DNA from: Girardia tigrina
Taxonomy: Eukaryota
Direction of reading: 5' to 3'
Assembly (NCBI GenBank): GCA_001938485.1
Contig: MQRK01247947.1
Coordinates: 4,884-67,086 of the forward strand
DNA: 62,203 nt
This document shows positions 3,091 to 57,373 of the stretch, one piece after another (the first letter of the stretch is position 1; each line of letters opens with the position of its first letter). The notes under the pieces were generated by a model. The model worked only from the letters and a program-made list of their open reading frames with translations, searched no databases and was not told the DNA's origin. The translations under genes were made by a program, and so were the position numbers.

Positions 3091-3634
3091 TTCGATTTAT
3101 CAATATGTTTCAAAACCAACATTTTCCTGTTTTAAAAGTAAAAGTAGTCATTTTAAAATAAAATATTTCATTAATGCAATATATTTTTTTGTTTAAATAT
3201 TCTAATGAATATTTAAAAAGCGTGTTTCCTGTTTATTTTCAAATTCGCAAACGTCGATTTTGAATTTCAACATGGAAATTACATGTACAAGGCAAATACC
3301 GCAAAAAGTTATTATTGAAGATAATAAATGTACAGTTGATTTTGCTGTCAAAGACAGCGTTTGAATGTTTCCTAACCCCAAACGCAAATCAAAAAATAGA
3401 TTAAAAATATTTGAAATTCAAATTTAAATTAAAATCCTGGAGGAAAATTATGGTGGAATAATCATACAATCTGATACATCAATCAACCATCGGAGTCAGG
3501 AGAGACTTCACTCTGTAAAATAACACACCACAAATAAAATTAAAAAGTTTAATAATAAAAACAAATCAGAAAAATTGTATTATATTATATTTGTTTAATA
3601 TTATGCGTTTTGATAAGTTTGTAAAATAAAAGGT

Positions 3635-4671
3635 CTAAATTTGTATAAACGGATGATTCAACACTTCTTCCGTGGTGATTCTTTTATCCGGATCAACAAC
3701 AAAAATTTTAGAAATCTAAATTAAAATTTTTAATATTATAATTATTGGTAACAATGTATAAAATACCAGATCTAATGCTTGTTGAGACAACTTTCCATAA
3801 TCTTTCACTTTAATCGAGTATCTTCCTTCTATGATGTCCGCGTACGTATGTTCTATTTCAGTGCGTTCGTATGGAAAGTAACCTAAAAGCAAGAAAAACA
3901 TAACGACCCCAGCAGACCAAACGTCTGTCGGTTTGCCAAACAAATGTGTTTTATGATTCTGTATTACATCCACCATTTCCGGTGAAAGATACATAGGTGT
4001 TCCCCTCACATCTAAATGTTATTATTGTCTAGAGATATCATTATCACAGTAAAAGCTTACATTTCCGTTCGTAAAGATCGTCGTTGCGAACCGACACTTC
4101 AAAGTCGATCACTTTTATGTTGTCTTCATCATCAAGTAAAATGTTCTCTAACTTTATATCTGCGTGAATTATGTCTATCGAATGCATAAAATTTATTGCC
4201 TCGAATAACTGGTGGGTGATTTGTTTAGTTCGAAGTTCTGAAAATTGTCTATTGTTGCGACCGTAGGTTGCTAAGTTTCCATTTTTACAACTATGTTAAA
4301 CAGAATTAGTATCATGAATTGCAAAAGCTACTTACAAATCCATGATCATGTAAATCCTATCTTTAGTTTCGAAACTTGTGTAAACATTAATAATGTAAGG
4401 ATGACTAAAGCAAAGTTTCAACATAATATATTCGTTGCGTGAATTCGAGATTGTGCGTTTTTTAGTATATTTATCTCCTCGTATATCGGTTATTTTAACT
4501 GCGTATTGTTTCTATTTCATTAATATAAAATTTATTTTATAAATGTGAAATACTCACGTTAGTCGAAATTTCAGTACACTTGTATACCGTTTTAGAACTG
4601 CTTATGCCGATCAGATCACCACAAGTATATCTTGCATTAAATTGGTTTTGTACTTTAGAATTCTTGAACAT
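3635..4671 (-). CDS. Ser/Thr kinase paralog K1 (CAMK-like, DFE/non-RD), 281 aa; exons 4671-4558, 4511-4336, 4290-4061, 4011-3767, 3715-3635
   Basis: Manual splicing at GT-AG introns (46, 45, 49, 51 nt) gives an open frame with YAVK, RNE, HADIKLEN, DFE, GTPMYLSPE, DVWSAG, KRIT...HPF. Confidence 0.9.
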
Positions 4672-5605
4672 TTTAATAATTAAATTTATTTATTTCTTTC
4701 GAATATAATTATATCCTAATTAATTTATTTATATAAAGATATATTATGTAATCGATATTATATAATTGGGATTTTTAGAATATTATTTTTCCGGATTCTC
4801 TTTTATAATTGCTAAATTGTTAATGAAAATAATTAAGTTACTTATTCCAATGAAAATTTTTCATGAGAGAAATTAAAATAATGAATTTCTAAAAATGCCT
4901 AAAATAATCATGAGACCATTAAATTAACTGAGACGACGAGGAAATATAACCGAGTGTTGTTTTAATAACTCGTTGTAAGCGTAAATTTTTTACAAATAAA
5001 TATATTTCAGTACCCCAACTATACCTCCTCTTGGATTACATGGGATACAATTTGAAATATTTGTTGGAATAATTGTTTTGAAACCAATCATTTTAAAATA
5101 TAAACAATTTGGTTTGATGTCGATCGATGAAAGTTTTGTGTAGAGATATTGTAAAGATTATTGTGATAATAATAGAATTTATGAAAATAATATTAATGCA
5201 CTTAATAAACCCTACTATTACGCACAAAGTTTAGATCATGAGCCAAATAACTCATTTAGAATGAAGTAAGGAAAGACAAATATAATTTCTATTTTCAGTC
5301 AGTACGTCATATGTTGAGTATATTTGATCTTATTATTTCCATTTTTATCGGTTCTCTTTCCAGCATGTGACTTAGGTTTCTAAGATTATTTTTAAGAAGT
5401 CAGGTTGTTAAAAACATACGTCACTGTATCTTTCAAATCCTTTTTGAGGCATATTTCTGATCTCTTAAAAATCTTTTTAAATAATTATACATGCAAATAA
5501 TCAAATTAAATTTAAATTTAAAAAGAAATATCAAATTAAATTTTATTAACGAAGTTAAGTATCAAAGACTTTTAGGCTGGTAAATATCGTCCAGATTTCG
5601 CTTAA

Positions 5606-11919: not shown

Positions 11920-13100
11920 AGTTATGTGTGATTGATTAATTATTGAATATTGTTTGTTTAAATAATATATAGTTTTTGTACGCGGTTTAAAATATAGTTT
12001 TGATTTGACTTTGAAAATGGATTTTAAAGAAACCAAAAACGTAACTGGCGACCACGCCGAAAATATCAATGCAATTACGAGAAGCCAACAAAGAAATATT
12101 TTGCTTGCGTCGCTGCCGAAGAAGACAAAGCGAAAAAATGTTCAATCCAGAACGAAAGAAATTCTATGCCCTCGGAAGACCCAAAACTATTTTGATCAGA
12201 TAGTGGTAGATGTTGCCCACATGGACAAAGTTTCAACAAAAAAATTTTTGGTAGTCATTATACACCGATTTAGTAAGTTAGTTAGTTTGAAAGCGGTTTC
12301 GAAGCAAGATGAGCGCACTATATTTAAATGTATTTTGCACAATTGGATCTATAAATTCGGCAAGCCATCTAATATTCTGACAGACCGGGGTAGACAATTC
12401 CAGAGTGCATTTATGAGCCAGAGTTTGGAACAATTACAGATAAAACAAGAATTTAGCTCACCAAATCAACATCAGTCGAATGGTTTAGTGGAACGGGTGA
12501 TAAGAACAGTAAGAGATATGATCGCAACATCATTGAAATGTACAGAGAAAAATTGGGATGAATTGTTGCCTCGGATTGAGTTCAGTCTCAATGCAACTGT
12601 GCAAGATTCGACTAAATTCTCACCTTTCGAGATCGTTTACGGCCGGAAAATAAAATCCATTCGGTGTCTGGAACAAAAACTTTCGACAAGGATCAGATCA
12701 CTGAAGAGGTTCGAGACAATGGAGATGCGGCAGCTGAGAAAATGATGATGTACCAAAAAGAAAGTCGAGGGAAGAGATATTTCAGAGAGGGAGAGATGGT
12801 ACTCGTCCGGGTGGATCCTACAAAGAAAAACAAGAACGATTTCCAATACGAAGCACCGTACAAGATCCTCAGATTCATTTCGCCACACCAGGTTGAAATT
12901 CAATTTTCAAATGAGGTGAAAAGAAGGCGCATTGAATGGCTCAAACGCTGGCCGGGTTTTTGAAGAGGGGGAGAGTTATGTGTGATTGATTAATTATTAA
13001 ATATTGTTTGTTTAAATAATATATAGTTTTTGTACGCAGTTTAAAATATAGTTTTGATTTGATTTTGAAAATGGATTTTAAAGAAACCAAAAACGTAACT
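11920..13100 (+). mobile_element. Miniature gypsy-type LTR element carrying only integrase
   Basis: 127-bp LTRs (11920-12046, 12974-13100; 3 differences; AGTTA...TAACT ends). Primer-binding site (PBS) TGGCGACCAC, PPT gaagagggggag, TSD ATATA. Integrase D-D-E in VVDVAH / LTDRG / NGLVER, with a frameshift before the C-terminal module. Confidence 0.92.
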
Positions 13101-13320
13101 ATATAATTTAATGATTGTGATTTTAAAAAATTTCGATTGATCGAATTATTAATTTCATTTACAATTTAGCAATTATACCCCTGTAAAAGTGAATCAGGAA
13201 AAAATAATATTCTAAAAATCACAATTGTGTAATATCGATTATGTAATAGATCTTTGTATAAATGAAAAAATAATATATAATTATCATTTTCTAAGTCATT
13301 AATTAATTTTAATTATTAAA

Positions 13321-14347
13321 ATGTCCAATAATTCGACTGTACAAAACCAATTTAATGCAAGATATACTTGTGGTGATCTGATCGGTAAAAGCAGATTAAA
13401 AACAGTATACAAGTGTACAGAAATTTCGACTAACGTGAGTATTTGACAATTAAAAATAATTTTTATACTAATTAAATAGAAACAATTCGCAGTAAAGGTA
13501 GCCGCCTTACATGGAGATAGAAATACTATAATAAATATAATATTGAATTCACGCAACGAATATCATATATTAAAACTTTGTCTTGCTCATCCTTACATTA
13601 TTAATGTTTACGAATATTTTGAAACTGCAGATAAGATTTACATGGTCATGGATGTGTAAGTAGCTTTTGTAATTCTTCATGTTACTAATTCCGTTTAATA
13701 TAGTTGTAAAAACGGAGACTTGACATTCTACGGACAATTTTCAGAAATTCGAACTAAACGAATCATGCGTCAGCTATTTGAAGCAATAAAGTTTATGCAT
13801 TCGATAGACATAATTCACGCAGATATAAAGTTAGAGAACATTTTACTGGATGATGAAGGCAACATAAAAGTGATCGACTTTGAATTGTCGGTTCGCAACG
13901 ACGATCTTAACGAACGGAAATGTAAGCTTTTACTGTGATAATGATATCTCTGGACAATAATAACATTTAGATGTGAGGGGAACACCTATATATATTTCAC
14001 CGGAAATGGCGGATGTATTACAGAATCATAAAACACATTTGTTTGGCAAACCGACAGACGTTTGGTCTGCTGGAGTCGTTATGTTTTTCTTGCTTTTAGG
14101 TTACTTTCCATACGAACGCACTGAAATAGAACAAACGTACGCGGACATCATGGAAGGAAGATACTCGATTAAAGTGAAAGATTATGGAAAGTTGTCTCAA
14201 CAAGCATTAGATCTGGTATTTTATACATTATTACCAATAATTATAATATTAAAATTTTCAATTTAGATTTCTAAAATTTTTATTGTTGATCCGGATAAAA
14301 GAATCACCGCTGAAGAAGTGTTGAATCATCCGTTTTTACAAATTTAG
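13321..14347 (+). CDS. Kinase paralog K2, 277 aa; exons 13321-13434, 13480-13655, 13704-13921, 13971-14215, 14267-14347
   Basis: Spliced open frame (introns 45, 48, 49, 51 nt) with FAVK, RNE, HADIKLEN, DFE, SPE, DVWSAG. 12-nt in-frame deletion in exon 3 relative to K1/K3. Confidence 0.9.
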
Positions 14348-15083
14348 ACCTTTTATTTTACAAAATTATCAAAATGCATAATATTAAACAAATATAATAT
14401 AATACAATTTTCTGATTTGTTTTTATTATTAAACCTTTTAATTTTATTTGTGGTGTGTTAATCTTAAGTCTTGAAGGCTCTCCTGGCTCAGATGGTTTAT
14501 TGAGAGTAGGAAGAAAATGGGCATTCAATATATAACCAACATTCCCTCTAATTCTTTTTTACGGGCGCATATATCTTAAATGCGTGAGAAGCACAGTTAT
14601 TTAACTTCATTCAATAAAATACGTTATAGAAGCAATAATTATAGCAGTTTTTGTATGTTTATCGGAAATAAAGGTGGTTTATCACAATTAAAAGATATCA
14701 TAGAATGCCGTTGGTGCGATAATTCCTTTAACAACTATATAAATATATGCTTTTGAATAAAAGAAATGTCTTTTCTGAAAAATGTTTATTCAGCTTATAA
14801 AAAAGACTTGTTGTTAAATTTTTAATGCAGTTGCATTTGACTTTATTTGGAATTGTATTGTTTATTGCTGACAATAAACTCAAATTTCTGTACGAAAGCA
14901 ATATTGTTTTGTCGTTGTTGATTTAAAGCATTAATTTTAATTTTGTAAAGAAAAACAACCAGCTGTCTGTGTTTTCTGAAGCAATCAATAAACAGTAAAT
15001 ATTATCTCACAAATTAATTTATTTTAAATCCAATAAATAATGAAACAGAGATTAATTTATGAAAATTCGTGTATAGAATTGTA

Positions 15084-28403: not shown

Positions 28404-28761
28404 TACGTATTAATGTATTTTTTTCATTATTTGTTTTGTCTGATTATGATAGAAGATCCGTGGAAATAAATCACCTGTTTTGCTAAAAATTCGTTTGAAT
28501 TGTTTCTAATCAAATATACAAAGAAAAATTCGAATAAAAATATTTAAAATTTAAATTTAAATCCTAAAGGAAAGTTATATTGTAACAAACCGATCATCCG
28601 ATACCTCAATCAACCATCTGAGTCAGGAGAGCCTTCAAGACTTAAGATTAACACACCACAAATAAAATTAAAAGGTTTAATAATAAAAACAAATCAGAAA
28701 ATTGTAATATATTATATTTGTTTAATATTATGCATTTTGATAAGTTTGTAAAATAAAAGGT

Positions 28762-29801
28762 CTAAATTTGTAAAAACGGATGATTCAACACTTCTTCCGC
28801 GGTGATTCTTTTTTCCGGATCAACAACAAATATTTTAGAAATCTAAATTAAAATTTTTAATATTATAATTATTGGTAATAATGTTTAAAATACCAGATCT
28901 AATGCTTGTTGAGACAACTTTCCATAATCTTTCACTTTAATCGAGTATCTTCCTTCCATGATGTCCGCGTACGTATGTTCTATTTCAGTGCGTTGGTATG
29001 GAAAGTAACCTAAAAGCAAGAAAAACATAACGACCCCAGCAGACCAAACGTCTGTCGGTTTGCCAAATATATATGTTTGATAATTCTGCATTTTATCCGC
29101 CATTTCCGGTGAAAGATACATAGGTGTTCCCCTCACAACTAAATTTTATTATTGTCTAGAGATATCATTATCACAGTAAATGCTTACATTTTCGGTCGTA
29201 AAGATCGTCGTTGCGAACAGACAGTTCAAAGTCGATCACTTTTATGTTGTCTTCATCGTCCAGTAAAATATTCTCCAATTTTATATCTGCGTGAATTATG
29301 TCTATCGAATGCATAAAATTTATTGCCTCGAATAATTGGCGGGTGATTTGTTTAGTTCGAAGTTCTGAAAATTGTCCATTGTTGCGACCGTAGGTTGCCA
29401 AGTCTCCATTTTTACAACTATGTTAAACGGAATTAGTAACATGAAGAATTACAAAAGCTACTTACACATCCATGACCATGTAAATCTTATCTGCAGTTTC
29501 AAAATATTCGTAAACATTAATAATGTAAGGATGAGCAAGACAAAGTTTCAACATATTATATTCAATGCGTGAATTCGAGATTATGTTTTTTATAGTATTT
29601 CTATTTCCTTGTATGGCGGTTACCTTTACTGCGAATTGTTTCTATTTAATTAATATAAAATTTATTTTTTAAATGTGGAATACTCACGTTAGTCGAAATT
29701 TCTGTACACGTGTTTACCGTTTTTGAACTGCTTATGCCGATCAGATCACCACAAGTATATCTTGCATTAAATTGGTTTTGTACTGTAGAATTGTTGGACA
29801 T
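28762..29801 (-). CDS. Kinase paralog K3, 281 aa; exons 29801-29688, 29641-29466, 29417-29188, 29138-28894, 28842-28762
   Basis: Spliced open frame (introns 46, 48, 49, 51 nt) with FAVK, RIE, HADIKLEN, DFE, SPE. Confidence 0.9.
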
Positions 29802-30340
29802 TTTAATTATTAAAATTAGTTTTTGTGATAAATATATAATAATTAATTTCTTTAAATAAAGATCTATTACATAATCGATATTACACAACTGAATTTTTAG
29901 AATATTATTTTTTCCGGATTCTCCTTTACAAGGTTTGGTCATAATAGTTAAATTGTAAATAACAATAACAATTCGATCGATTGAATTTTTTGAAATTTAT
30001 ACAATACTAACATTTATTATCACCGATAATAATTACAACTATACCCACATCATTATTTTTTTTCATGTTATAATTTTTAATTTTAATAAATAATGATTGA
30101 TCATGCAATTTTATTTTCCGCGGATTTTTCATTGTTCCGCCGGATTCAGCGGCCGTGGAATTGATGGGTTCCTGATTACGTTGTTGTTAAACATGTTTTA
30201 AACTTTCTGTGTAATATTAGAATCTGTTAGCAGCATTAATATTATTTTTACAACTTAAAGTTATCTCGACCTCTCTAACATTTCTATAACACACACTTCT
30301 GCACACTAAAACTAAAAATGCATTTTTTTCAATTTGCAAT

Positions 30341-31467: not shown

Positions 31468-32097
31468 ATGCCTAAGATTTTGAATAAAATATTCGCAAAA
31501 GACCGAGGAGCAGTGTTTGAAAAAGATAATTTTCACAGCGATATACGAATTCTCTTCCGTTCATTTTGTAACAAGACTGTTGATCATATATTATGTCAAA
31601 TCATCACAGATCATCTCAACAGCGCCAAGCATCAAGAAGTTACGCTGAAAAGTCAGGCAGATACTTCATCGAGTGGGCAAGCTAAGAAGCAGTGTACGGT
31701 GACTACATTTTTTGAACAGCAAGTCACTGCTAAAGCGCAGAGTGATAAAGTAGCTCATGATTTTCTGGGCATACTCGTGAACGCTAACATCCACATTAAA
31801 AAAAACCAAGCATCCGATGGTCTACCAATTTTTATCCACACATGTAAAAGGTGGAAATACTGTATTTAAATCGGATTCTCTACGCCTTTACTCTCTGCCT
31901 GCCTTGATTGAGGAGCATGATGCAAAGTTCGGTAGATGAATGAATCGTAACACATTCCTCATCATTACCACTGATGAAAGGATAGATTTCAAAAAATGCC
32001 CCGTCTTTAACATACTATTCCAGGTACTGTGCCCCGCAGACCAACTTACAGGCGGCTTTGATGTACTGTCCAAACCATTGCTAGTTAAAACGGTTTA
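31468..32097 (+). pseudogene. CGGBP1-like/hAT transposase N-terminal relic
   Basis: LFRSFCNKTVDH..I.DHLNSAKH zinc finger, NANI, TDERID..VFNIL; fused to a gypsy RT at ~32098. Confidence 0.6.
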
Positions 32098-34791
32098 CAT
32101 CGACATTCCCAGAATTGATGATATTTTACAATTCACAAATAAAAAGAAAGTATTTGCCACAATTGATTTGGAAAAGGTGTATTTTCAGATACCCATAGCC
32201 CCGGAAGACATTGAAAAAACGGCAGTCAGCACCCTTTTTGGCATGTTCGAGTTTTTATACATGACTTTCAGTCTTCTTAATGCCCCTGCAACCTTCCAGA
32301 GAACGATAGACAACGTTCTTCGAGCGTATCCGTTTGCAGTACCCAATTTGGATGACATACTCATCGTCTCAGACTCGGAGGAAGAACACACCAACCAAGT
32401 TGTAGAAATTTTGTCGGCTTTACAACGGGCTAATCTATCAATCAATCGGAAAAAAATGTCGATTTACTATGAAAGAAGTGGAATTTCTCGGATACGCAAT
32501 CAGTACGTATATGGCTTACTATTCAAGTGCATCATCACTTTTTTGATATTCTGATTTCTTCTGTCTCTAAAATCGATGTGCATTTTGTGTAAATTTGCAC
32601 ATTATGCTAATTATAGGAAAATGTTATCAATATATGATATTTCTAATTGCAAATTCAGATAGAGAATTAAAATGTGCACTAAACACATGATATCGATTTT
32701 TGACACTAGCACTTTTAAAAATTTCATGTATTGAGTTTTGCACTTTTGCACATGTGCAACATAAAAAGAACTGTGATAGTACATTTGAAATGTGCGGCAC
32801 AACGTGCACTATCTATTAGCACTTTAAAAGTATCGATTAACACACTTGTGCGCTGTGCAGCGATCGATTAGCACTTTTTTCTACGGTTGCCATGGCAAGG
32901 GTAACGGTTGCTATGTATACGGTAACCGTTATCATGGTTACAAGCGCCTTGAATCACTGTATCCGTTGCTGATGAAAAACGTCCTTGGTTACCGTTGTTA
33001 TGGGAGCCGAAACCGTTACTAGGGGCCCGGGAACCAATCAGAAGTGTTTCCAAGGTACCGGGGACCAATCGGAACCCTTGCTAGGGTGATCGGAACCGTT
33101 GCTATGGTAACCGTGACCGCTGCTAAGGTGATCGCGACCGTTGCTATGGTAACCGGACCCGTTGTCATGGCAACGGGTGACGGCACCACCCCGGGGGGTC
33201 AATTATCGATTGAGTGCAAACATACAGTTTCCCCCTACTGGCATGGTTGAAATGACATTCGATAACGAAGGAAGCGTTTCACGAAACTCAATCCGCGTCA
33301 ATGACGGTCATGGAACTCTCCTCATATGATTATTCTCAACCACTCATTCTGCGGTTGGACGCTTCCGGAACAGCGGTGGGAGCGGAACTCGAACAAAATG
33401 GTAAACCTTTATATTTTTTAGTAGACAGTTATAGGCATGCGAAAAACGCTACAGTACGTACGATCGAGATTTACTGGCCATATATAAAGCCTGCAAACAT
33501 TTCCGGCCCCTTCTGGAAGCTATTATTACGACAGTTTTTACAGATCACCGGCTTCTCTCGCACAACCAACCAAAATATCCAATAAACCATCACTGGAGAA
33601 CCTTCAGTTCATATCAGAACTAAACTGTACCATTGAATACTGCCCAGGTCACACAAACACAGTGGCCGATTCGTTATCTAGAAACAAAATCATGCAAATG
33701 GATGCCTCACAAAGCAACGCATTTCCTTGGCCGACGCAAGTCATTTCAGCCAAACAACGAACAGAGTTAAAGAAGGATTCGGACGAATTATGGATGAAGA
33801 ATAATAAGTTAATATTACCGCCGTCACTTCAGAAAGAAGCTTTTCAGATGCACCATCAGGGTGGTCATCCAGGCATCAAAAGTACCATAGAACTTATCGC
33901 TCGATCGTATACATGGCATCAAATGACGAATGACATTCAGAAGTAGTGTCAGAAATGCCAAGAATGTGCGAAAGCTAAAATTCATCAATACATTAAATCA
34001 AAGATCATGCAACTTCCAGCAGCGAGCAGATTCAACGCAATTCACATGGATATCATAGTACCGCTTCCAGTTATAAACGGTAAGGTATTTATATTAACCG
34101 TAATAGATCGTCAGACATCGTGGCTAGAGATAATACCGGTCAAGAACATAACAGCTGAAACAGTAGTAAGAGCCTTGGTCGAAAACTGGATATCTAGATT
34201 TGGTATTCCGGTCGAAATAGTGACCGACAGGGCCACTCAGTTCACTACTTCTTTCTTCTAGGAATTAAGCAAACAGTTAGGCATTAAATCCATTCAAACG
34301 ACGGCATACCCCCCACAATCCAACTGAAAGGTGGAAGGACTTCATCGCACCATGAAAGCGACAATTATGGCAATAACGCTACAAAACAAAAAATATGGAT
34401 TCACGAACTGCTCTCGGTGGCGTTTTGCTTACAGAATTGCTCGGATGCCAATGGACTGTCACCCACCTAAAAAGTAAACGGGGCTAATCTCTCCATGCCC
34501 GGGGCTATATTCAAAGTGTCGATGGAGTGCATAGGAAACATTGCGGTAAGTGGAAAAATAGTCAAACGAATATTTCAGAACGACGTAAAAATTCCGAAAT
34601 CAATCGAGGACTGTGAGTTCGTGTATATAAGGAAACATACCGAAGTCTCGCTCGAAACCCCCTATTCTGAACCGCATAAGGTAAAGCAGAAGTGTCGCAA
34701 ATACTTCATCATGCATGACTAGACATCAGTATCAGTTGATCGACTCAAACTGGATTTCATTTTCACCCATAGTGTTTCTGAGAGGGGAGAA
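32098..34791 (+). pseudogene. Gypsy pol relic (RT, RNase H, integrase) with PPT
   Basis: IPRIDD, FATIDL..YFQIP, NAPATFQR, NLDDIL, LDASG, ADSLSR, H..GHPG..C..C, HMDI, TDRATQF; PPT gagaggggaga at ~34780. Confidence 0.9.
32505..33212. repeat. 708-bp insert in the RT, with TGCAC-rich repeats, a 21-bp X-box array and a CCCCGGGGGG palindrome
   Basis: The RT frame (EFLGYAIS|ANI) is interrupted and AGT is repeated at both junctions. 14-mers such as GTTGCTATGGTAAC occur at 32886, 32907, 32928, 33077, 33098, 33119, 33140 and 33161. Confidence 0.75.
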
Positions 34792-36059
34792 ATTTAATGA
34801 TATAATTTAATTTCATAAAATTAAATTATACATTAAAAAAAGAAAGTAAAAGAAATTAATTATTTCTTGTTTAAATAAACCAATTTTCATAAAAATACTA
34901 TGTTGAATACCTTTACTTTGTCTTCCTAATAATTTCAGTTTAGGAGTACGGAGAATCACAACAAGATGGCCACCCCAAATTTGAAGAAAATGTGTCATCT
35001 AATCACGGTGCGTATCTGAATTGGTTTTTGCAGTTGTTTTCCTTTTATATACAGGGATCGTCTGGCGAGCGTCTAATCGATCAATCGGTCGTGTTACTGA
35101 CAGTCTATTTGCATTCTGACCTTCTGGTCTTCCGTAAGCAATTGAGATGAAGATCGCACTTTCCCACATTCGGGTTCTCATGGACGTCACTGGGATCAAC
35201 ATGCTTTAGTTGTCGATTGAAGACAACCGCCTCCATAGTTGCAACAGGTTCGTCACTGCTTGTAACCACGGTTGCCAACCCGTCCAATTCATCCACTTTC
35301 CACGTCTTCTCTCCTCACTGATCGGATAAAAATTCTGCATCGCCTTCGATTTACCGTCTGAGTCTGTAGTCACTCACTTATCATCTTCTCGTGCCTTTCA
35401 CTTCTCTGCAGGGCAGAGATCTGGTTCCACGCAACGATAAATGAGTGGTTATTTCGGCGCGCTTATTCACCCGATGTGCATCCGCAATCGATCGTCAGAT
35501 TTAAAGCCGTCCACGAATTGAGCACTTTGCCATCAACTAGATCCCATCATAAATCCCCACGACCCGCTTCTCGATCGACTTAATGTCCCCGCGATCTGTT
35601 CCTTGATAGCCTGATCTTCTTCAAACACGATTACTCCGGTTGCTGTGGTCAATATCGGGCGCATTTCACCGTGCACAACACAACCCAAATCCAAACAGGC
35701 CGAACATGAGCGCCCTCAACTCCTATCTCTCCATGCTCTCGGCAAACAGCACGAATTGCCCTCGAGATCTTCTTCAAAAACAGAATATACTCGAGACCAA
35801 ATGCGGTGAGATGCATTCGTCATCTAACCCAATTCCTCGACCACCTCGTGTTCTCCACGGATTGTCCTGCCGTTCCCGACCACGATCGTGCCGTCCCCCT
35901 AGATCCTCCGAATCGCCTCCGAGGTAAAACAGTAAAACGCACCACTACCGGCCTCAACATCCCTATCAGACTGGCCACAACACTTCCAACCGGAAAATAT
36001 CACGCGGTTTCTTGTCAAACCAATGTAGAAGATCTTCGTTTATATCGTTGACATCGGCA

Positions 36060-38487: not shown

Positions 38488-39514
38488 ATGTCTAATTTTA
38501 CTCATAATTCCGACTCACCAAAACAGTTTCATGAAAGATATCGTTTAGATAAAATAATGGCAAATAGTGATTTAACCATGGTATATTCGTGTATAGAAAT
38601 GTCGACTAATGTATGTTTTTTAAAAGTTATCATTGTAATAAACCTAAGTTTACTAAATAGAAAAAATTTGCGGTAAAGATATATAAATTACAAGGCGAAG
38701 AAAACATGCGAAATGGAATGATCTCAAACTCCAGATCAGAATATCAAATTACAAAGTTTTGCTCAGATCATCCTTATATCATTAATGTTTATGAATATAT
38801 GGAAAACGAAGAATATGTGTATTTAATCATGGATTTGTGAGTAAATATTATATTTCTTGCCTTTTACTATATTGTTTAACATAGTTGCAAAAACGGAGAC
38901 CTGCTATCCCACATTAAAATATTCAGAAAATTACCAGAAAGTCAATTTAAAAGAATCCTTCGCCAGTTATTCGAAGCGATACGTTTCCTCCACGCAAATG
39001 ACATAATTCACGCGGATATCAAGTTGGAAAACATTTTAATTGATAACAGAAACAATATAAAGATAATCGACTTTGAGTTGTCGCTTCACAATGACGATTT
39101 GATCAAACGAAAAAGTAGGATTTTATATTTGACAAATAAAATTTTGTAACACATTATATTTAGTTGTAAGAGGGACTTCCGATTATCTTTCACCGGAAAT
39201 GGCGAATAAATTAATTAATCGTAACAGACAGATATTTGGTCTGCTGGGGTCGTCATGTTTTTCTTGATTGTAGATTACTTTCCGTTCGAAGGAAACACAC
39301 ATGAAAAAATGTACGCAGATATTATAGTTGGGATATATTTGATCAAAGATCGTTTAAGGATGTCTCCTGAAGCATTAGACTTGGTATTTGATATATTATT
39401 TCATATTATGATGATATTAAAAACTACATTTAGATTTCTAAAATATTTGTTGTTGATCCTAATAAAAGAATCTCAGCAGATGAAACGTTGAGTCATCCAT
39501 TTTTAAAGAATTAG
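38488..39514 (+). pseudogene. Kinase paralog K4 with a 19-nt frameshifting deletion in exon 4; exons 38488-38610, 38661-38836, 38885-39114, 39164-39383, 39434-39514
   Basis: Same intron positions; FAVK, RSE, HADIKLEN, DFE, SPE. The frame jumps from QIFG to TDIWSAG at 39228-39240. Confidence 0.85.
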
Positions 39515-39839
39515 AACTTTTATATAACAAGATTATGAAAAGTAAATGTATAATAAAAATATAATATAATATAGAAAATATTGTTTTCATTTATTATTAA
39601 CATGGATCGTTATATTTCTATAAATCTAGAGTTGTTTTACGAATAGAATCCTCTCCTTACTCTTATGGTTGATTGAGGTATTTAATGATCGGATTCAACA
39701 TTAATTAAAAAGTAATTAAAGTAAAATCGGAGATAAATGTGTGAAGGATCGTGTAACCACTGTTGTAGGTTCAAGTATAAAATAAGATAAATTACATCCG
39801 CTGATAATTTGAAAATCAGTGCACCCTTGAGCCTTCCGA

Positions 39840-40200: not shown

Positions 40201-42108
40201 GTCAAGACGTAAAAATTGATATTGCTATCCAGAACCAGTAGTCGCGATTATTTTTTGTAACAGAATTGAATTTCGTGATTAATCTCTAAGAAAATATGAT
40301 ATATTATTCGATTTCGAATATCCATTATCCTATTTCATTTGATTATAATCAGTGATAATAATCAATCAATTTCAATTTTTCCAGATTGAAAATACTCTAA
40401 ACTAAATCTCCAGATCTCGCATCCTTGGAATATTAAATTCCTAAACTCAAAATCCATAAAATCGAACTAGATTAATGTTTTCTGCAATCAGTTGTCTCTT
40501 TTCTTCACCTCAACTGATCTGAGGTATATTCCTATTTCACTTTCATTATTTATTGGGATTACTATACCTTGTTATTGTATTTACCGATAATTTAAATAAT
40601 TTAGATCTAATTTCTTTTCGTTTGTTATATATTCCCTAGCGTTAAATCAAGAAAACGTTTACTATATCGTGTTAAATACGTTTTAACATTCATATAAAAA
40701 AATAGTATCGATATATGCGAGACTAGATCTTTTTAATTAGTTGCCTCATATTTTCTAAGGAAATCACTGACAATCAGACTACAGGATGAAAAATTACTAT
40801 CATAGAATATGTCGTGACCGCAAAAAAATGCAAAGGAAAAAAGCGCACAGGAAAAAAGCACATGTGGAAAAAACCTCATAGGTATAAAAGCGCACATGGA
40901 AAAAAACGTATTTTTATATAATCAATGTAATTTAATGAAAACAAATGCAAACAAAAATAAGTAATATATCATTAAGTCTAAGATTTATTCAGAACCGATA
41001 GAAAAAATTAATGAACAGAATTATAAACTACTGTAGATTAGCTATTGTCCTTAAATAAGATAACTTGTCCTCTGTTTCATGATATTTTTCCACTGAACTG
41101 GCTATAATCGTAGAGTATTCTGTATTTTCTATTAGTTGGTTCCAGTTGATTAGCTTGTGAGTTTACTAATATTAGCTTATGGTACGCTAAATCTCTTCTC
41201 AATCCATCGAAAAGAATCCACACACTCGGATGACTTGAATGAAATATGGAGTTAAGGGTATTGTGAAACTCTTTGCAACAATTAGTTGTCTTTGGAGATT
41301 GATCAAGAGCTGCATCTTAGTGATTTCATGTTGTAATGTGGAATTTAGGAAATCTTCCGGTGGTCCCTTGCATATTTGTCGAACAAAAGAGCTCAGTACG
41401 TCGTTAAATCTGTCTGTCTTGCATTTCTTCTAATGGCACGAACGACAATGTACCCAATGATTTTAACTTTAATTTTGTGCCAATGCTTGACTCGAATTCC
41501 GATTTTAGACTGACTGCATTAATTTTCCTTATAATGCTTTGGCTCAAATAAAAATAACATTCTTTAATTTCAGCCTCTGGAAAAGTACATCTTTCAGCAT
41601 TCATGCAACCATTCTTGAAATCTAAAAGTATCTTTTCAGGCGCCATATTTAGAACCAATTTTTTCAAAATATTAAACATCCCCAAGAATGTTGCTTCATT
41701 CTTCTTTGTCAGCAGTGCATAAACACATGGTGGATACGAATTTCCTAATTTGACATGCACAGTGTAACGTTGATAAAACATAGTTGGTGCCTTGTCAAAA
41801 ATTCCGTCACCAAAGAGTGTGGTTTGGCTTAATTGGCCCAGTAACTCTCGATCTCCTAATACTAAAATTCGATATGAATCATATAATCCCGAGTCGTGTA
41901 ATACTAAGTTCGAGTATTTTCAGGAATTGAAAAATCTGTTGTGGATGGATTCGGCAAGTGTTTTTTTCTCGGTGATTTAGAAGAGTTCTCGCAAGAGAAG
42001 TGGTGGTGCTAGAGCGGGTGCAGCATGGTGGCTGCGGCGTGTTGGTATTAAGGAATGATTTGCGAAACGCGGGGGGCTCAAATTCAACGTAATCTTACTG
42101 CCATCATC

Positions 42109-42708
42109 CAATATAATTTCTCCTTCCTCATCAACGCCGAATTCAATCTTTATATCAATTAATTGACAATTTAAACTACTCCAAATCTTTTCTGCAATTT
42201 CAAAAATCGCGATTGTCATGTCCGACATTACTTGAATATCTCTCTCTGTTATAATCCGTTGCTTCAACCCGATCTTCAGTTCAAACGCAACTAACAGCTC
42301 ATATAAACATCGCGGATCGTGATTGGCATCATCTTTGAAAAACGTTTCTCGTTTAACCAGACAAATTTTATAACCTTCCGGAACACCAATATTTCTCTTT
42401 AGAAAAGATCCCGTAGTGATCCTTCTCCTGACCCACTCAATAGGAATCATATAACATCTTTTAGCAACAAAACTTGTATCGGAATGTTGCTTAATAAAAT
42501 GACTTTTTATATCAGAAAAAAACAACAACTCGAAAATATGAGTCACCGTTGTCGTACTAATCGCCGCTTTCCCTTTCATCGAGTGGCTCTTCATACCGTC
42601 ACCGACGGTTATTTTGTCTTTGGACACAATCAAACACAAATCCTCAAAATCCGGCATTTCACAAACGATCTTCGTCTTTCCCTCTATTATTGCTTTGTCG
42701 AAATTCAT
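42109..42708 (-). pseudogene. PAICS: PAICS/ADE2 SAICAR-synthetase domain, 5' 200 codons, truncated before the ADVID motif
   Basis: EGKTK, SKDKIT, GKAAIS, MIPIEWV.RR..TGSFLKRN.GV.EGY, FFKDDANHDP, IFEI.EK.W, DIKIEFGVD match animal PAICS. Intronless. Confidence 0.9.
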
Positions 42709-42920
42709 ATTTTTAATGTTTTAATCAATTTTACTTTGAATCAAATAAAGAAATTTATTCGAAACTTTATTTTTCTTACACTTTTTACAAAACAATGGTG
42801 ACTTTCCACTCATACAATTTCAAAACATTTTCACGCCAATTTTTAATAAAAAGATCAATTAAAACAAATTGGTGGAAATACATTAATTTATTCAATATTA
42901 TCGTTAATTTTTCATCAAGA

Positions 42921-43230
42921 ATGTTTAATCGATTGTCAATTCAAAAATTGTCTTGTATAAAACAATTTATTAGAGGTGAGAAATCGGTTCCGGCGAAAAT
43001 GACACTTGAACTTTGGAAAAAAATATTTCTATGAAATACTTACAAAAACCGATCAAAAGACGTTCCACATGATGTTAAGGCCATAATGACTCATGATAAA
43101 ATTCGTTCGTGAGGATCTGCTCCATTATTTTTATTTGCCAAAACTGGCCTGTTTGATTTTAAATTGTCATTGCAAGAATTCGAAGATGTGATTGGGATCG
43201 TTTCCACTGAAATAACTGGAATTATCATTG
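42921..43230 (+). pseudogene. 5' end of a gene divergent from PAICS, with a mitochondrial presequence-like N-terminus
   Basis: MFNRLSIQKLSCIKQFIRGEK... The frame runs ~100 codons with two TGA stops. The ATG is 212 bp from the PAICS ATG, head-to-head. Confidence 0.35.
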
Positions 43231-44234
43231 TTCCCCCCCCTTTTAAATCAAACAGGAAGATTACTTTTGAAAATAAGCAAATGCATTCATGCTTACCTCT
43301 GTCAATGTCTCTCCAATAACATTGCAGAAGGTAGCATTTATTGCAACCATGGCTTCTCTCGTTTGGCTTTTAGCGAAGTTTACTTCAGCTTTTTGTGGAC
43401 AGGAATCATGACATTGACTGCTTGAATCTTGTATAATTTTCTTGTTTTTTGTCTTCATAAGAGAATAGCACTTAGTCTGTCGATTTTTGTGGCACCTCCA
43501 TGTATCTATTCCATTTCTTGTGCAAAAATGTAAGTATTCAAAACCACAATAAATAAGAACTTGTTTTCCTTTCTGACTAATTGAAAACTCCATTGTCTAT
43601 AAATTTAAAAATGAATTAAAAAAACAATTATTTTACTATAATTAAACATTTTTAAATTTCTGTTTATAAACTAAATGTGTTTAAACAAAATTAATTAATA
43701 TTTTTGTTTTTAAAATTATTTAGAAGTATTTTCAGTTATAAAAATTGTTAATAACTTTTTAAAAATTAACTTTAAATAATTATTTAGAAAATATGTTTTA
43801 CTTATAAAAATTCTTTTTAATAAAATTCTGATTTTAAATATTTTAGATAATTTTCATTTTAAAATATTTAAAAATAAAAATTTTAAAATATTTAAAAATT
43901 AAAAATATATATAATAATATCACCACATCCTAACAAATTGAATTTTATTTTTCGTTTTACTTTTAGAAATGCGTTATTTTCCATGTGTGTTTTTATACCT
44001 ATGCGGTTTTTTTCCGTGTGCGCTGTCATCCTTGTGCGTAATTTTCCATGTGCGCATTTTTCCGCGTGTGCGTTTTTCCGTAAACCGGAAGAAACAGAGT
44101 TTCCGGATTTTCGATTTATCAAAAATAAATTCTTTCAGTTTCTCTATTATAAAGCATGAAACCTTATATTTTTAGCTGAAATACATTTCATCTTTATTTA
44201 TTATTAATAGTTAACTAATAACTAATAGTTTTGA

Positions 44235-44790
44235 GGCTGATATATTACGATTGCCAAGAACAAGTAATTCAGTTGAAGAGTGGAAACGTGGTTTTAACCA
44301 ACTCATTGGATCTAGTCATCCAAAAATTTAGAAATTTATAGATGATCTCAGGAAAGAAAAAAGTATTAATGAATTCGAAATTGAGCAAAACATTACTGGT
44401 CAATGCTTCCTCTGGTACCTCTTACAGTTTATCGTGATAAAGCTCTACGAATAGAGGATATAGTTAATGACTATGAGAATCGCTACATATTGGATTGTTT
44501 AAAAGGCATCGCTCAGAACTTGAAGTGTAAATAATTTTTGTACAATTTTTTAAAATCGATAATTACAAGAACAATTATTTTTACTTCATGTTTATCACTA
44601 CTTATACCATCATTTTGATTGAAAGATTTTAATAAATTTGAATTTCATTTCAAGTATGAAAATGTCATATGATTATTTGATCAACTAAATCTACTTTTGC
44701 CTTTTATGTTTTCGCTATTTTTTTCTTTCACCTTTTCTTCTTTCGCTTCTTCAATTTCTCTCATTTTGTTTTTGCCTTTTTGACATTTAA
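44235..44790 (+). mobile_element. Second MULE: transposase C-terminus and terminal repeats
   Basis: LPRTSNSVEEW..FN..GSSHP.I..FI..LRKE, followed by ttcgc/ttttt repeats. Confidence 0.65.
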
Positions 44791-45207
44791 GTATGAAAAA
44801 CTACAGCCATTTTTATTATAAAAAGTCTTCAAATCTAAAGTGAAAAGATTTTTGAAACATTAATTTCTACGGTGATTTATTCCTTTATTTATTACTTGTC
44901 ATTTACATTTTATGCAGATACTAATAAATAATTATAATAATAAATCTCGATTAAAATAATCATTATAAAAAGTGCGCGTTTTCCGTAAAATGCGCCTTAT
45001 ATATTCGTATTTCATGTAGCACTTGAGATAGACCATTAATTATATTACTTGACAACTTCTTTTGTATTGTGACGTATTTAAACACAAAAGATTTTATACT
45101 TTATATTCTTTTTGGAGATAAAAATACAAAAAACATTTTAACAATTATTTATTAACTTTAACAATAATTTGGTAAATAAATTATCGGATCAAAGCCAGTT
45201 TGGCTTT

Positions 45208-46232
45208 TTAAGCTGTGAAAAAAGGATGACTTAAAGCATCTTTTGCTGATGTTCTTTTAATGGGATCCACAATAAGAATTTCAGAAATCTAAAATCAATA
45301 ATGAAATTTATAAAAACTTGGAATATTATTTTAAATACCAGATTCAGTGCTTCTGAGGATATGCCTACCAAATCTTTATCTTTAATCACATATTTCCCCT
45401 CACTAATAAGCTTAAGTAGCTCATCGTTAGAATCGTGACAGAAAGGAAAGTATCCCATCAAGCAAGCATACATGATAACACCTGCCGACCAAATGTCCGT
45501 CGCCTTGTCAACCATCGCTTGAGCATTTTTTTCTAAATATTTTTTTGCCATTTCTGGTGACATATAATCGAGAGTTCCGCAAATCACTTAAAAAAATACA
45601 ATCAAATCTATCCATTATCAAACCAAAATCTAACTTTTTCTTCTATTGAAATCATCTTGATGAACTGTTAATTCAAAATCGATAACTTTAATATCATCTT
45701 GATCATCCAACATTATATTGTCCAGTTTCATATCGAGGTGAATGTACCCTTTACCATGGATGAAACTGAGAGCATCAAATAACTGGTACATGATTGTTTT
45801 TACTCGGCTTTCCGGTAACCGAGTTAGTCTTAGTAAATGGTCAAATAAATTGCCTTTTCTAAAACTTGACCAAGCAAAGTGTTAAATTGTTGTATATGTA
45901 TATCAGTTACTCACTAATCCATTACTAAATGTATATTGTTAATGTTTTCGAAGTAATCATGCACATTTATTATGTAAGGGTGATCTGAAAAGACTTTCAA
46001 AGCATTGTACTCCGATTTTGCCTTTAATGACGTCCAATTTTTCATCGAGCTTGAAACTTCGAATGTTTTAACAACATAGTCTTTCTATAAAATAAATATA
46101 TTATATATATTAACGCACATAGCAGCTCTAGGTTACGTTGGACGCAATCTCCGTGCATAAGAATATTGAAACCATTGTACCTTTATATAATCGTTTGTCT
46201 AGTTTATATTTTCTAGAAAAAGATTTATCCAT
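45208..46232 (-). CDS. Kinase paralog K5 (most divergent), 274 aa; exons 46232-46137, 46084-45915, 45864-45635, 45586-45339, 45288-45208
   Basis: Spliced open frame (introns 52, 50, 48, 50 nt) with YVVK, KSE, HLDMKLDN, DFE, CGTLDYMSPE, DIWSAG, HPFF. Confidence 0.88.
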
Positions 46233-53872: not shown

Positions 53873-54550
53873 TTATTTCTTCTTGAAAGGAACTTCAATA
53901 ATAACGATTCCATTGACAAATTTATAATTAACTTTTCTTAAATCATACATTTTTGGGCTCAAACTGATCTCTTTGTTAAATTCACTCTTAAATTCTTGAA
54001 CTTGGCTTATGTCTCCTTGGCTTTTTGTACTTTTCGATGCATGAATTTTCAGAATTCCTTGTTTGGTGGTCGTTACTAGAATATCCTCTTTGTTGAATTG
54101 GAGTCCGATTTCTTCTTCAACAATGCAATTTCCATTTTCAATGGACAAAGAACTTTTTCGTCTTGCAAAAGTCAGGTCTGACATTTCATCCATTTGGTCC
54201 TGAAAGGATCTCCGTTTTTCCTGAAAATCCGGTGTCAATAAATTCATATCCGATCTATTTTCTGAAGAGCTCGAATTTCTTATATCAGTTTTATTTAAGA
54301 AAACTGGGAAGATAACTCTAAGTTTTTTGTTTTTAAATTTTGTTGTGTACTGACTCCAGTCGACGTCGCTTGGTAATTCTGTTTCTTGATTGAATTCCTC
54401 AAAATCTTTCTTTTTATTTTGTCCTCTGATTCGAAGAATATTATTACTGATTTCAAAACTAAAATCTTTTTCATGGAATCCATCGACGATCGTCTCGACG
54501 ATGTAACTTTTTTCGTTGTTGCTTCTCGTTTCGTAGAAACCACTTATCAT
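53873..54550 (-). CDS. Small heat-shock protein with two alpha-crystallin domains, 225 aa
   Basis: Domain 1: VDGFHEKDFSFEISNNILRIRG..EFNQETELPSDVD..KLRVIFP. Domain 2: FNKEDILV...GILKIHA..EFNKEISL..YD..V.YKFVNGIVIIEVP. Intact ATG-to-stop. Confidence 0.8.
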   Translation of the reverse strand: MISGFYETRSNNEKSYIVETIVDGFHEKDFSFEISNNILRIRGQNKKKDFEEFNQETELPSDVDWSQYTTKFKNKKLRVIFPVFLNKTDIRNSSSSENRSDMNLLTPDFQEKRRSFQDQMDEMSDLTFARRKSSLSIENGNCIVEEEIGLQFNKEDILVTTTKQGILKIHASKSTKSQGDISQVQEFKSEFNKEISLSPKMYDLRKVNYKFVNGIVIIEVPFKKK

Positions 54551-55474
54551 ATTTTCTTAATATAACTCTCTAATATTCTCATTTCTTATTCATTTTATAG
54601 TACTTCGATAACGTTTTATTACCATTTAATGATCGTTCACAGTGTGTGAGATTGTTGATGAATGAAGCTTTTTGCAATGTTATGAACCATATGACCAGCC
54701 TGATGATTCAGTTGAGTTTGTTTTATGTTGTACACTGGTCCATTTTGCTTGATCTTGTCGGGTCATACCCTCATTTTAATGCAGTTATTGATGTAAACTC
54801 TTTTTATTGCAGTTTTTTGTTGATTTTATTTTCAAAAAAACGAAAATTTTTATTTATGCAATTAATTTTAAAAGAGATTTAAAGAAAATGTTACTTTTAT
54901 AAAATAGTATTTGCAAGTTTCACGCAGATTATATAAATTAATAGAATAATTAATAAATTCCTAATGAATTATATTTGTTTATTATTAATTATATTAACGA
55001 GATGAATTTGTAAAATAACTCAACTTATGATCTCAAAAATTATTACAAAAAAGATCTTTTTATTTCCCATCTTACAAAATGGATTCAGTCTAGACTTACC
55101 TCAAATTATATCCTAAAATAGGTTTATTAAATATTGATTTAAGTAAATTAATTTAAATTATTATTTGTTTTTTTTATTTTTTTAGTGAAAATATATGTAA
55201 TTTTCAAAAAAAATAATTTCTTAATAAATAAATAATTATATTTAACAATCTTTATTTGGCTTTTTTGTCTTTCTATTTAAAATTAAAAATTATTGAAAGT
55301 GATTCAATTTTCTATTTTCTGTCATCACTTTTTTGGAAAATCATAATATTCTTTTCCTATCATATAAAAAAATTATTTTAAGCTATTAAGTTAAATATAA
55401 TGTGATTCTTTCGTAAGTAGTATTAACATTATCTTCGATGGTGTTTGATTTAGGAATAGAAATTAGAATTTTTC

Positions 55475-57373
55475 GGTACGTCGACTTTACCGGGACGCCT
55501 TTATCGCGGACGAATTTAACGCGGGTGACTTTACCGCGGATTTTTTAAATAGAATTTAAATTGTTTAAATAGAGATCCGGAAGATTTGATGTTTCTTTTA
55601 TTTTTTTCCAAATTGATTGGTTCAGCTAAAAAGAACAGCCTTCATTGCTCCCTTTTCAAAATTCAGCATAATAGTTTGTTGATTTAAATTTGGTCTTAAA
55701 AGCTCTTCATACGTACGAGTGTAATTTAATTGAAATTTATTGGTCATTAATGCATGAACAAGAGGCAATACTTTGTTTGATTTCAAAGGATGTATAAACT
55801 TGGTAAAATAATGTCCCTTCCATAAACCAATTTTCACATTGTAAATAGCGTTTATGCCACTTTCATTATTATCACATTCTAAAGTCATAATTTAACACCA
55901 CAAAAATTTATTAATATTCACAATTCATATACTTAAACAAATTTCTTGTTACTTCAATTATTTCGCCCAAAATTAGTTCATTAAATTCTTTCGATAAAAT
56001 TTTGAAAATATACAAAAATTTAAATCTTAAATAATCTTACATTTTTTACAAAAATTTTACAATATTTTGATCTTAAATAATCTTATATTTTTTCTACAAA
56101 AATTTTACAATATTTAAATCTTAATTAATCTTATATTTTTTTGCAAAAAAATTTACAATATTTTGACCTTACATAATCTTATATTTTTTTACAAAAAAAT
56201 TTACAATATTTAAATCTTAATTAATCTTATATTTTTTTACAAAAAAGATACAAATTTTTAATGTAACCAAATTTTACATTCTTATGAAACTTAATCATAA
56301 AACTAATTAATTTAAATTTACAATAACCATTTTATTAAAAAATTATTTCTGAAAATATTAATCCGTTAATTAAAATTTATTTAGCTTATTCTATAACTTT
56401 TATTAAAATATGTTAATTGTTATTATTGTAAACATATTTTAAATAAGTATTTTTTTATCATATTTTTACTCTACATTGTAATTGTTAATTTATTTCTTTT
56501 AAATTTTCAAATTAAAAAAATAATAAACTATTTTGGCGAAACTTAAAACTAACCCCTCATACACATGAAGCCAATAGATTTATGTTTGCAGTTGAACTGA
56601 AGAGCATTATCCGGTTGGCATCATTAGATTCGAAATCGTATATCAAAAAAAGATTCATTTCTAGTTGTAAACCTAAAAGTTTAAGGAACATTTATTTCTG
56701 AAAGATGATTTGGATTTGACCAAGGAGCATTCACTTGTTTTCGTTGAATTGTACGTTGACTAGAGCTATAACTTGGAAGAAATATTGCAGCGTCAAGTGG
56801 AATCTCAATCCAAGATTTCTGAATAATTTGCTTTGGGCCCTCAACTGTTTGCGATGCAAGAGTTGCAACCAACTGAGCAATGTGCCTAACAAAAACTTTA
56901 CCTGGCTCACGAGCATGATTATGCTCAGCTGGGTGACCTAAAACAATAGATACTTCGTTGTGGTTTGAAGTACGAATTCTTCCTTTACATTTATGTTGTT
57001 CATGAGCAACACAGAATTGATGATTCATGCTGAAAATGGTGTGGAAAAAAAATTTAAAGAAATTTATATTATTTTTTAATATTAAATAATAAAATTTAAT
57101 TTAATAAGGCCTATTCATAAAGCCATTTTAATGAAAAAAATTTTTTTAATCAATCTAACTACAAATTGTCTAATTCTGAAATGAATGTTTTAAAATTCGG
57201 ATTTAATCATGGTATTAAAAGTAGAGTAAATGAATGGATAATTAAATGAAAAGTAGAGAGTTTTTTCAATCTTGTTATGATGTAAATTAAAATGAAAATT
57301 AAAAGTTTAAAAAAAATATGATATTTGTATTGGAAAATTTGATGAAAAAAATCCGCGGTGAAGTCGCCTCACC
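55475..57373 (-). mobile_element. MULE, internally rearranged
   Basis: Inverted gactttaccgcggattttt / aaaaatccgcggtgaagtc termini; FLYWCH-like C..CKGR...HNH and LPLVHALMTNK..MLNFE.GAMKA fragments. Confidence 0.75.
56010..56260. repeat. ~46-bp AT-rich tandem repeat, ~5 copies
   Basis: tcttaa.taatcttatattttttacaaaaaattttacaatattt units. Confidence 0.8.

What the first reader, a model, noticed from the sequence alone, without database searches (positions are those of the whole stretch)
42001..43254. Host PAICS 5' end and divergent neighbour captured inside a MULE as a TG...CA insert with TSD
Seen: the MULE transposase reads seamlessly (AYFQK*S|SLARTLLNHREK) once 42001-43254 is removed. The insert starts TG, ends CA, and is flanked by AGAAG/GGAAG. 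It holds 200 stop-free, intronless codons of PAICS, a 212-bp spacer and a head-to-head gene start. It is bracketed by a ~100-bp GC-rich cap beginning TGGTGGTGCTAGAGCGGG (PBS-like) and a C8 tract that reads AAAAGGGGGGGGAA (PPT-like) on the minus strand. Known: Pack-MULEs capture gene pieces mainly in plants; TG..CA with a 5-bp TSD is an LTR-integrase footprint. Inference: genomic (not simple mRNA) host DNA, including a probable bidirectional promoter, was mobilised by an integrase-type event and now lies within MULE TIRs.
Basis: partly seen in the sequence, partly recalled or inferred. Interest (0 to 1): 0.75.

Follow-up and report, generated by a model that had tools for sequence, protein, structure and literature searches.

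The report
Purine-gene fragment nested inside dead transposon
A 1.25-kb piece of DNA holding the decaying first half of a purine-synthesis gene sits in the middle of a dead DNA transposon, likely put there by a separate retroelement-type insertion rather than captured by the transposon itself; it is a single relic with no sign of function.

Summary
The insertion is real. A MULE transposase is split at one point by 1259 extra bases; 16 of 16 aligned homologues run across the junction without a gap, so nothing was lost and 3-5 bases were duplicated. The cargo is codons 1-202 of an animal-type PAICS, changed at 13 of 81 conserved sites (decaying), a 212-bp AT-rich spacer and a probably coding, unidentified divergent stretch. 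Corrections: the frame is restored only if one flank copy is also removed; the MULE is broken elsewhere; the junction parses equally as TG..CA with a 4/5 duplication or TG..CAG with a perfect 4-bp one; the 'PBS' and 'PPT' lie on opposite strands and there is no LTR pair. New: the right end is a 105-bp TG..CA unit with 12-bp inverted ends. Best reading (0.45): an integrase-type, solo-LTR-like cassette already loaded with host DNA landed in a passive MULE. Rivals: break-repair insertion with foldback (0.25), LINE-type chimera (0.12), PBS-ended single-LTR cDNA (0.10). No genome, parent locus or read layout was available, so copy number, origin and expression are untested. A curiosity of a known kind.

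The parts
40817..40916 (+). left terminal inverted arm of the MULE (degenerate, 16-bp subrepeats)
   Evidence: inverted arms 76-88% complementary
41031..42000 (-). 3' part of the dead MULE transposase (MULE domain onward; 3 stops, 2 frameshifts, 12-codon gap)
   Evidence: Pfam MULE E 4.9e-6; 52% to P0123 residues 141-422
41996..42000 (+). left copy of the target duplication (AGAAG; GAAG in the perfect 4-bp parse)
42001..42102 (+). 102-bp GC-rich cap of unknown origin, starts TGG; no tRNA, Rfam or Pfam identity
42103..42708 (-). PAICS 5' half (codons 1-202), intronless, stop-free, decaying, truncated before the end of the SAICAR synthetase domain
42709..42920 (.). 212-bp AT-rich spacer between the two ATGs; holds a 46-nt GTAAG..AAG intron-like stretch on the minus strand (42779-42734)
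   Evidence: GC 0.21; intron-like stretches of 48-50 nt in the nearby kinase copy
42921..43149 (+). divergent, probably coding stretch with 2 in-frame TGA stops; unidentified
   Evidence: stop count p 0.025 and codon usage p 0.02 for this frame, not independent; no family or homologue
43150..43254 (+). 105-bp right-end unit, TG..CA, 12-bp perfect inverted ends (15/16 if extended to 43148-43163 / 43241-43256), holding the C8 tract at 43233-43240
43255..43259 (+). right copy of the target duplication (GGAAG; GAAG at 43256-43259 in the 4-bp parse)
43260..43593 (-). 5' part of the MULE transposase (FLYWCH domain), stop two codons before the junction
   Evidence: Pfam FLYWCH E 2.6e-6; 45% to P0123 residues 1-114
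43964..44079 (+). right terminal inverted arm of the MULE

Best explanation
A 1254-bp cassette holding a decaying PAICS half-gene sits at one point inside a dead MULE with a short target duplication, and it was likely delivered by a retroelement-type integrase as a solo-LTR-like unit that had probably picked up the host DNA beforehand. Shown: one insertion point, no loss of target, 3-5 duplicated bases, TG..CA ends in the 5-bp parse, a decaying animal-type PAICS cargo, a broken MULE. Inferred: (1) the cap and the right-end unit are the two outer parts of an LTR or LTR-derived non-autonomous unit; (2) host genomic DNA spanning two divergent gene starts entered that unit by template switching or gap filling; (3) integrase made the staggered cut, and if two LTRs were present, recombination between them left one; (4) the MULE was only a landing site, and everything has since decayed without function.
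For: 16 of 16 aligned MULE homologues have no gap across the junction when the insert plus 5 bases is removed, and this register scores best of 16 tried (42.4 against at most 37.8). Ends match the published LTR integrase consensus TGTTRNR..YNYAACA (PMC3601003, passages) at 5/7 and 6/7; such a pair is expected at 3.5e-4 per parse in this window (thresholds chosen after seeing the ends, 7 parses possible). Both ends carry sequence unlike the cargo: a GC 0.53 cap and the window's longest C run 14 bp from the end. The region is full of nested LTR-element debris. Gap-filling Pack-TIRs replace a median 4.6% of the element (PMC8277862 section 8), whereas here nothing is missing.
Against: No direct repeat pair and no second copy of the cap or the right unit in 62 kb, so neither end is shown to be LTR. 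The left end is one base off TGTT and the 5-bp duplication needs a mismatch, while a perfect 4-bp duplication fits as well. The 12-bp inverted repeat pairs the right end with an internal site, not with the left end; such a repeat occurred in 9 of 539 control tails, 0 of 261 with similar GC, and is what foldback repair makes. Published LTR retrocopies keep both LTRs and come from mRNA (PMC5131818 section 5). The cap could be a scrap of another gene (weak kelch-like match).
Confidence: 0.45

Rival explanations
1. Break repair: a double-strand break with a short stagger inside the MULE was patched with a piece of the PAICS locus (plus a second scrap or an internal deletion giving the cap); the right end folded back and copied 12-16 bases before joining. 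This is a transposition-independent Pack-TIR, and TG..CA is chance.
For: Right end 43241-43256 is a 15/16 inverted copy of 43148-43163 and runs 2 bases past the CA, which explains the mismatched flank base and leaves a perfect 3-4 bp duplication. Short 5-34 bp foldback inversions and complex two-fragment insertions with 0-4 bp end microhomology are documented in yeast (PMC11724301 abstract and section 19). Most single-copy animal Pack-TIRs arise by gap filling (PMC8277862). Cargo has a genomic layout.
Against: Needs att-like ends (3.5e-4 per parse) and the C8 near the end by chance; gap filling usually removes element sequence and often uses a donor within 15 kb (57% of cases), but no other PAICS sequence lies in the window. 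The foldback loop would be about 78 nt.
Confidence: 0.25
2. Non-LTR retrotransposition: on the minus strand PAICS is sense and is followed by a 102-nt piece with a GC hairpin and a short CCA-repeat tail, as a LINE or SINE 3' end might be; reverse transcription primed at the target copied this tail and then a long PAICS transcript.
For: Orientation fits; the centroid fold of the cap holds a short hairpin about 20 nt from the end; short duplication; intronless CDS. LINE-RNA chimeras are known (PMC4476161, PMC13174262, search listing only). That LINE tails are short tandem repeats is recalled, not from a call.
Against: The template would have to run 546 nt upstream of the PAICS ATG, through the divergent stretch, and keep an intron-like piece; the cap folds no better than shuffles (z -0.68 and +1.35); no poly(A).
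Confidence: 0.12
3. Single-LTR cDNA: a retroelement RNA in which host sequence replaced the interior and the PPT gave a cDNA starting at the PBS and ending in one 105-bp LTR; the PBS end offers a CA-3'OH that integrase accepted as a stand-in att site.
For: Explains TGG at the left end, the discrete TG..CA unit with inverted ends at the right (6/7 and 6/7 to the att consensus), the absence of a purine tract before 43150 and of a left LTR, and a 5-bp duplication, all at once. A one-mismatch poly(A) signal lies 38 nt from the right end.
Against: The PBS matches no tRNA in any test; needs an RNA spanning antisense PAICS, spacer and neighbour; the unit has no local copy; the C8 is unexplained; no paper found.
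Confidence: 0.1
4. A non-autonomous cut-and-paste element with an integrase-like transposase (Ginger/TDD type) carrying host DNA between very degenerate ends.
For: TG..CA ends with 4-5 bp duplications are typical (PMC2836005 passages); DNA-level cargo is natural.
Against: No 40-270 bp terminal inverted repeats; neither end fits TGTNR; target is neither CCGG-like nor RTATAY.
Confidence: 0.05
5. Assembly chimera joining a PAICS locus into a MULE copy.
For: The scaffold has 6 N gaps; junctions could not be checked against reads.
Against: No gap within 20681-49421; two joins would have to fall in adjacent codons of one MULE and duplicate 3-5 bases; the PAICS is decayed, so it is not the working locus.
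Confidence: 0.03

Closest known systems
Pack-MULE / Pack-TIR (PMC8277862; abstract, section 8 and passages read)
   Same: Host gene fragment between the TIRs of a Mutator-like element in an animal; truncated cargo.
   Different: No element sequence is replaced; the cargo has its own ends and duplication; no MULE TSD and no second copy shown. That paper found no Pack-MULE in 100 animal reference genomes but calls the fly Ssk-FB4 family Pack-MULEs, so animal cases are rare, not unknown.
LTR-mediated retrocopies in animals (PMC5131818; abstract and section 5 read)
   Same: Partial, 3'-truncated gene copy bracketed by non-gene sequence with integrase-like ends.
   Different: No pair of LTRs, PBS-like and PPT-like motifs on opposite strands, cargo spans two divergent starts instead of one mRNA.
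Solo LTR with att sites (PMC3601003; passages read)
   Same: TG..CA, 5/7 and 6/7 match to the att consensus, about 5-bp duplication.
   Different: About 84% of its length (42103-43149) is host-like DNA; no sister LTR found; ends only 4/7 complementary to each other.
Templated insertions with foldback at breaks (PMC11724301; abstract and section 19 read)
   Same: Short inverted copy at one end, second fragment at the other, 1-2 bp microhomology.
   Different: Longer loop; clean target duplication; att-like ends.
Ginger1/Ginger2 DNA transposons (PMC2836005; passages read)
   Same: TG..CA termini, 4-5 bp duplication.
   Different: No TIRs, no TGTNR, wrong target preference.

Membership tests
Pack-MULE / Pack-TIR | non-element host fragment between the element's TIRs | tested here: met
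   PAICS between arms 40817-40916 and 43964-44079
Pack-MULE / Pack-TIR | 8-11 bp TSD around the whole element | tested here: inconclusive
   best of 6400 end/length pairs is 7/8 and lies outside the arms; element is old
Pack-MULE / Pack-TIR | filler replaces part of the element (gap filling) | tested here: not met
   16 of 16 homologues ungapped across the junction; bases duplicated, none lost
Pack-MULE / Pack-TIR | microhomology with the parent locus; loaded copies at several sites | not testable with these tools
LTR-mediated retrocopy | both LTRs flank the cargo | tested here: not met
   no direct repeat at the two ends
LTR-mediated retrocopy | PBS and PPT on the same strand inside the LTRs | tested here: not met
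   TGG motif on plus at the left end, purine tract on minus at the right end
LTR-mediated retrocopy | introns of the parent lost | not testable with these tools
   no parent locus; the closest relatives P0001/P0002 lie on 1.5-kb contigs; other window genes also have intron-free stretches over 600 bp
Solo LTR | TG..CA att ends and 4-6 bp duplication | tested here: met
   5/7 and 6/7 to consensus; 4/5 or 4/4 duplication
Solo LTR | homology to the LTRs of an intact element | tested here: inconclusive
   no match in the 62-kb window, 87 fetched loci or viral contigs; genome unavailable
Solo LTR | poly(A) signal near the 3' end | tested here: inconclusive
   one-mismatch signal at 43211-43216 on plus; exact signal at about 43130-43135 on minus
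Ginger DNA transposon | 40-270 bp TIRs and TGTNR termini | tested here: not met
Foldback templated insertion | 5-34 bp inverted copy at a junction with short microhomology | tested here: met
   12 bp perfect, 15/16 extended; 9 of 539 controls reach 12
PAICS (animal bifunctional) | SAICAR synthetase plus AIR carboxylase domains, conserved residues intact | tested here: not met
   only residues 1-202 of about 420; 13 of 81 conserved columns changed against a median of 1 in 120 homologues: a pseudogene fragment

The most novel reading that the evidence does not exclude
The insert is a fossil of an LTR retroelement cDNA that lost its PPT to captured host sequence, never made its left LTR, and was still integrated cleanly because the PBS end presents CA-3'OH like a processed att site: a one-LTR route for moving promoter-spanning host DNA into animal genomes.
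Probability: 0.1. Interest if true: 0.7.

Novelty: new variant of a known kind. Interest (0 to 1): 0.36.

Why it matters
Gene capture inside TIR elements and by LTR elements is known in animals, so one decayed copy changes little. It is a clean example that a 'Pack-MULE' can arise by nested insertion of a separately loaded cassette, with the MULE passive. If the ends prove to be a repeated family, or the one-LTR route is real, it would add a way for integrases to move promoter-spanning host DNA that current retrocopy and Pack-TIR screens (which ask for two LTRs or for a gap in the element) would miss.

Tried and rejected
Parent or close kin of PAICS: none above 55% among the 80 metagenome loci kept of 322, none above 36% over the full length among 7 viral loci, so a viral origin is unsupported; tree of 41 rows groups the copy with unnamed P0001/P0002 (100/96) and names no phylum. 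Cap: no tRNA or Rfam family (relaxed mitochondrial-tRNA calls are noise), one exact 18-mer match in viral contigs is in unrelated coding sequence, no Pfam/NCBIfam/Atlas identity; a kelch-like match to one designed protein (E 0.0094 from three identical repeats, each E 400) is only a lead; a likeness to LINE endonuclease and Tc1 motifs is recalled and untested. Neighbour: no hit; by recall, pieces in two frames resemble the start of mitochondrial ATP synthase subunit b up to 43148, but no tool confirmed it and no paper links it to PAICS. Function of the PAICS ORF: staying stop-free has probability 0.06-0.22 at 5-10% neutral divergence and 0.07 at the MULE's damage rate, so it is not evidence of selection. 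Phage DNA search: 10 short chance hits. Earlier scan notes: none. Cluster look-up could not be made. No supplementary files were read.

Full report
Setting. The window is an AT-rich, repeat-dense animal-type scaffold with 6 N gaps, none between 20681 and 49421, nested Gypsy-type, mariner-like and MULE debris and a multi-copy kinase family ('mariner-like' is recalled from the translations).

The insertion is real. A Mutator-like transposase on the minus strand is split at 42000/43260: the FLYWCH part (Pfam E 2.6e-6) lies right, the MULE domain (E 4.9e-6) left, between degenerate inverted arms. A profile-free search of 1.84 billion representatives gave 5517 relatives at E 0.001, the best 150 listed. 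I used 17 of these, chosen for score and length, and aligned 16 across the junction: none has a gap there when the insert plus 5 bases is taken out, and this register scored best of 16. Taking out 42001-43254 alone shifts the frame. So no target was lost and a few bases were duplicated. The MULE itself is dead: 4 stops, 2 frameshifts and a 12-codon gap against P0123, and no convincing TSD of its own.

The junction is ambiguous. Seven parses fit with at most one mismatch; the main ones are TG..CA with AGAAG/GGAAG (4/5), TG..CAG with a perfect GAAG, and TG..CAGG with a perfect AAG. For the first, the ends match the LTR integrase consensus of PMC3601003 (passages) at 5/7 and 6/7, a pair expected at 3.5e-4 per parse (thresholds set after seeing the data). 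For the others, the last 16 bases are a 15/16 inverted copy of 43148-43163; a 12-base match of this kind was seen in 9 of 539 control tails. This repeat defines a 105-bp TG..CA unit (43150-43254), one of 5 such units with 10-bp inverted ends in the window and the only one checked that holds a long C run.

Cargo. Codons 1-202 of PAICS (Pfam E 9.7e-45) align without introns to 4 of 4 homologues and stop at 42103; no other PAICS piece is in the window. The best of 397 longer relatives are two unnamed proteins at 65%, which group with the copy at 100/96 among 41 rows. The copy differs at 13 of 81 columns conserved in 120 homologues (median 1; P0001 3, P0002 4); 8 of the 13 need only a G>A or C>T change. 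It is a decaying pseudogene half, and its open frame is within chance. The 212-bp spacer is 21% GC and holds a 46-nt intron-like stretch, close to the 48-50 nt seen in the kinase copy; weak support for a genomic or unspliced template. The divergent stretch has 2 stops in 111 codons and host-like codon use (p about 0.02 each, not independent; the best of six frames reaches 2 stops in 33% of shuffles). Nine searches did not identify it. The cap is unidentified too.

PBS and PPT. The TGG motif is on the plus strand at the left end and the purine tract on the minus strand at the right end; in one LTR element they would share a strand and lie inside two direct repeats (established knowledge; a proper example is at 11920-13100). 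There are no direct repeats here. The two motifs therefore cannot be read as one element's priming signals.

Mechanism. I favour (0.45) a separately mobile, integrase-type cassette, most simply a solo-LTR-like unit loaded with host DNA, that landed in a passive MULE: it accounts for att-like ends, a duplication without loss, and non-host caps at both ends. It does not account for the internal inverted repeat, which favours repair with foldback (0.25; PMC11724301 abstract and section 19; PMC8277862 section 8). A LINE-type chimera (0.12) and a PBS-ended one-LTR cDNA (0.10) remain open; a Ginger-type element fails its membership tests (PMC2836005 passages); misassembly is unlikely (0.03). These odds are my weighing of the features, not a computed result.

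Comparison with what is known. By content it is Pack-TIR-like, a class described in animals, with a fly MULE example (PMC8277862); by junctions it is not a gap-fill product, and movement by the MULE is not shown. It is not a standard LTR retrocopy, since those keep both LTRs (PMC5131818 section 5). Searches for gene fragments in solo LTRs and for PBS-ended integration returned one unrelated listing each or nothing; the library is partial, so this does not show absence from print. Earlier scan notes held nothing.

Verdict. Observation largely right, interpretation half right. One old, non-functional nested insertion with an unusual and unresolved pair of ends: new variant of a known kind, interest 0.36. 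A genome-wide search for the two end pieces would settle it.

Noticed in passing
window 11920-13100: Short LTR element: two 127-bp repeats 97.6% alike with Zam-type AGTTA..TAACT ends, a PBS-like motif after the left one, a purine tract before the right one, and only an integrase frame (Pfam rve E 1.3e-11) inside; its left LTR end reads into that frame. Looks like a recent internally deleted, TRIM-sized element.
   Followed up: partly
window 3358-4833, 13122-14504, 28492-29995, 38504-39571, 45218-45818: Five dispersed copies of an intron-containing protein-kinase gene, 64-90% alike, in both orientations and next to transposon debris; possibly itself carried by a mobile element.
   Followed up: no
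window 43094-43227: A second possible LTR-like parse inside the insert: 134 bp with TGATAA..TTATCA ends, starting 3 nt after the purine tract on the minus strand and holding an exact poly(A) signal; no PBS follows it.
   Followed up: partly
window 44218-44403, 55625-55792, 56711-57013: Further MULE transposase relics of other subfamilies (24-43% to the homologues); a similar MULE-type end at about 44975-44990.
   Followed up: no
window 53873-54556: Intron-free 226-codon gene with two Hsp20/alpha-crystallin stretches (Pfam E 1.6e-9), apparently intact.
   Followed up: no
window 31940-36050: GC-rich Gypsy-type polyprotein remains (RT E 3.4e-17, integrase zinc finger E 4.4e-11), broken into several frames; no match to the cap.
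   Followed up: partly
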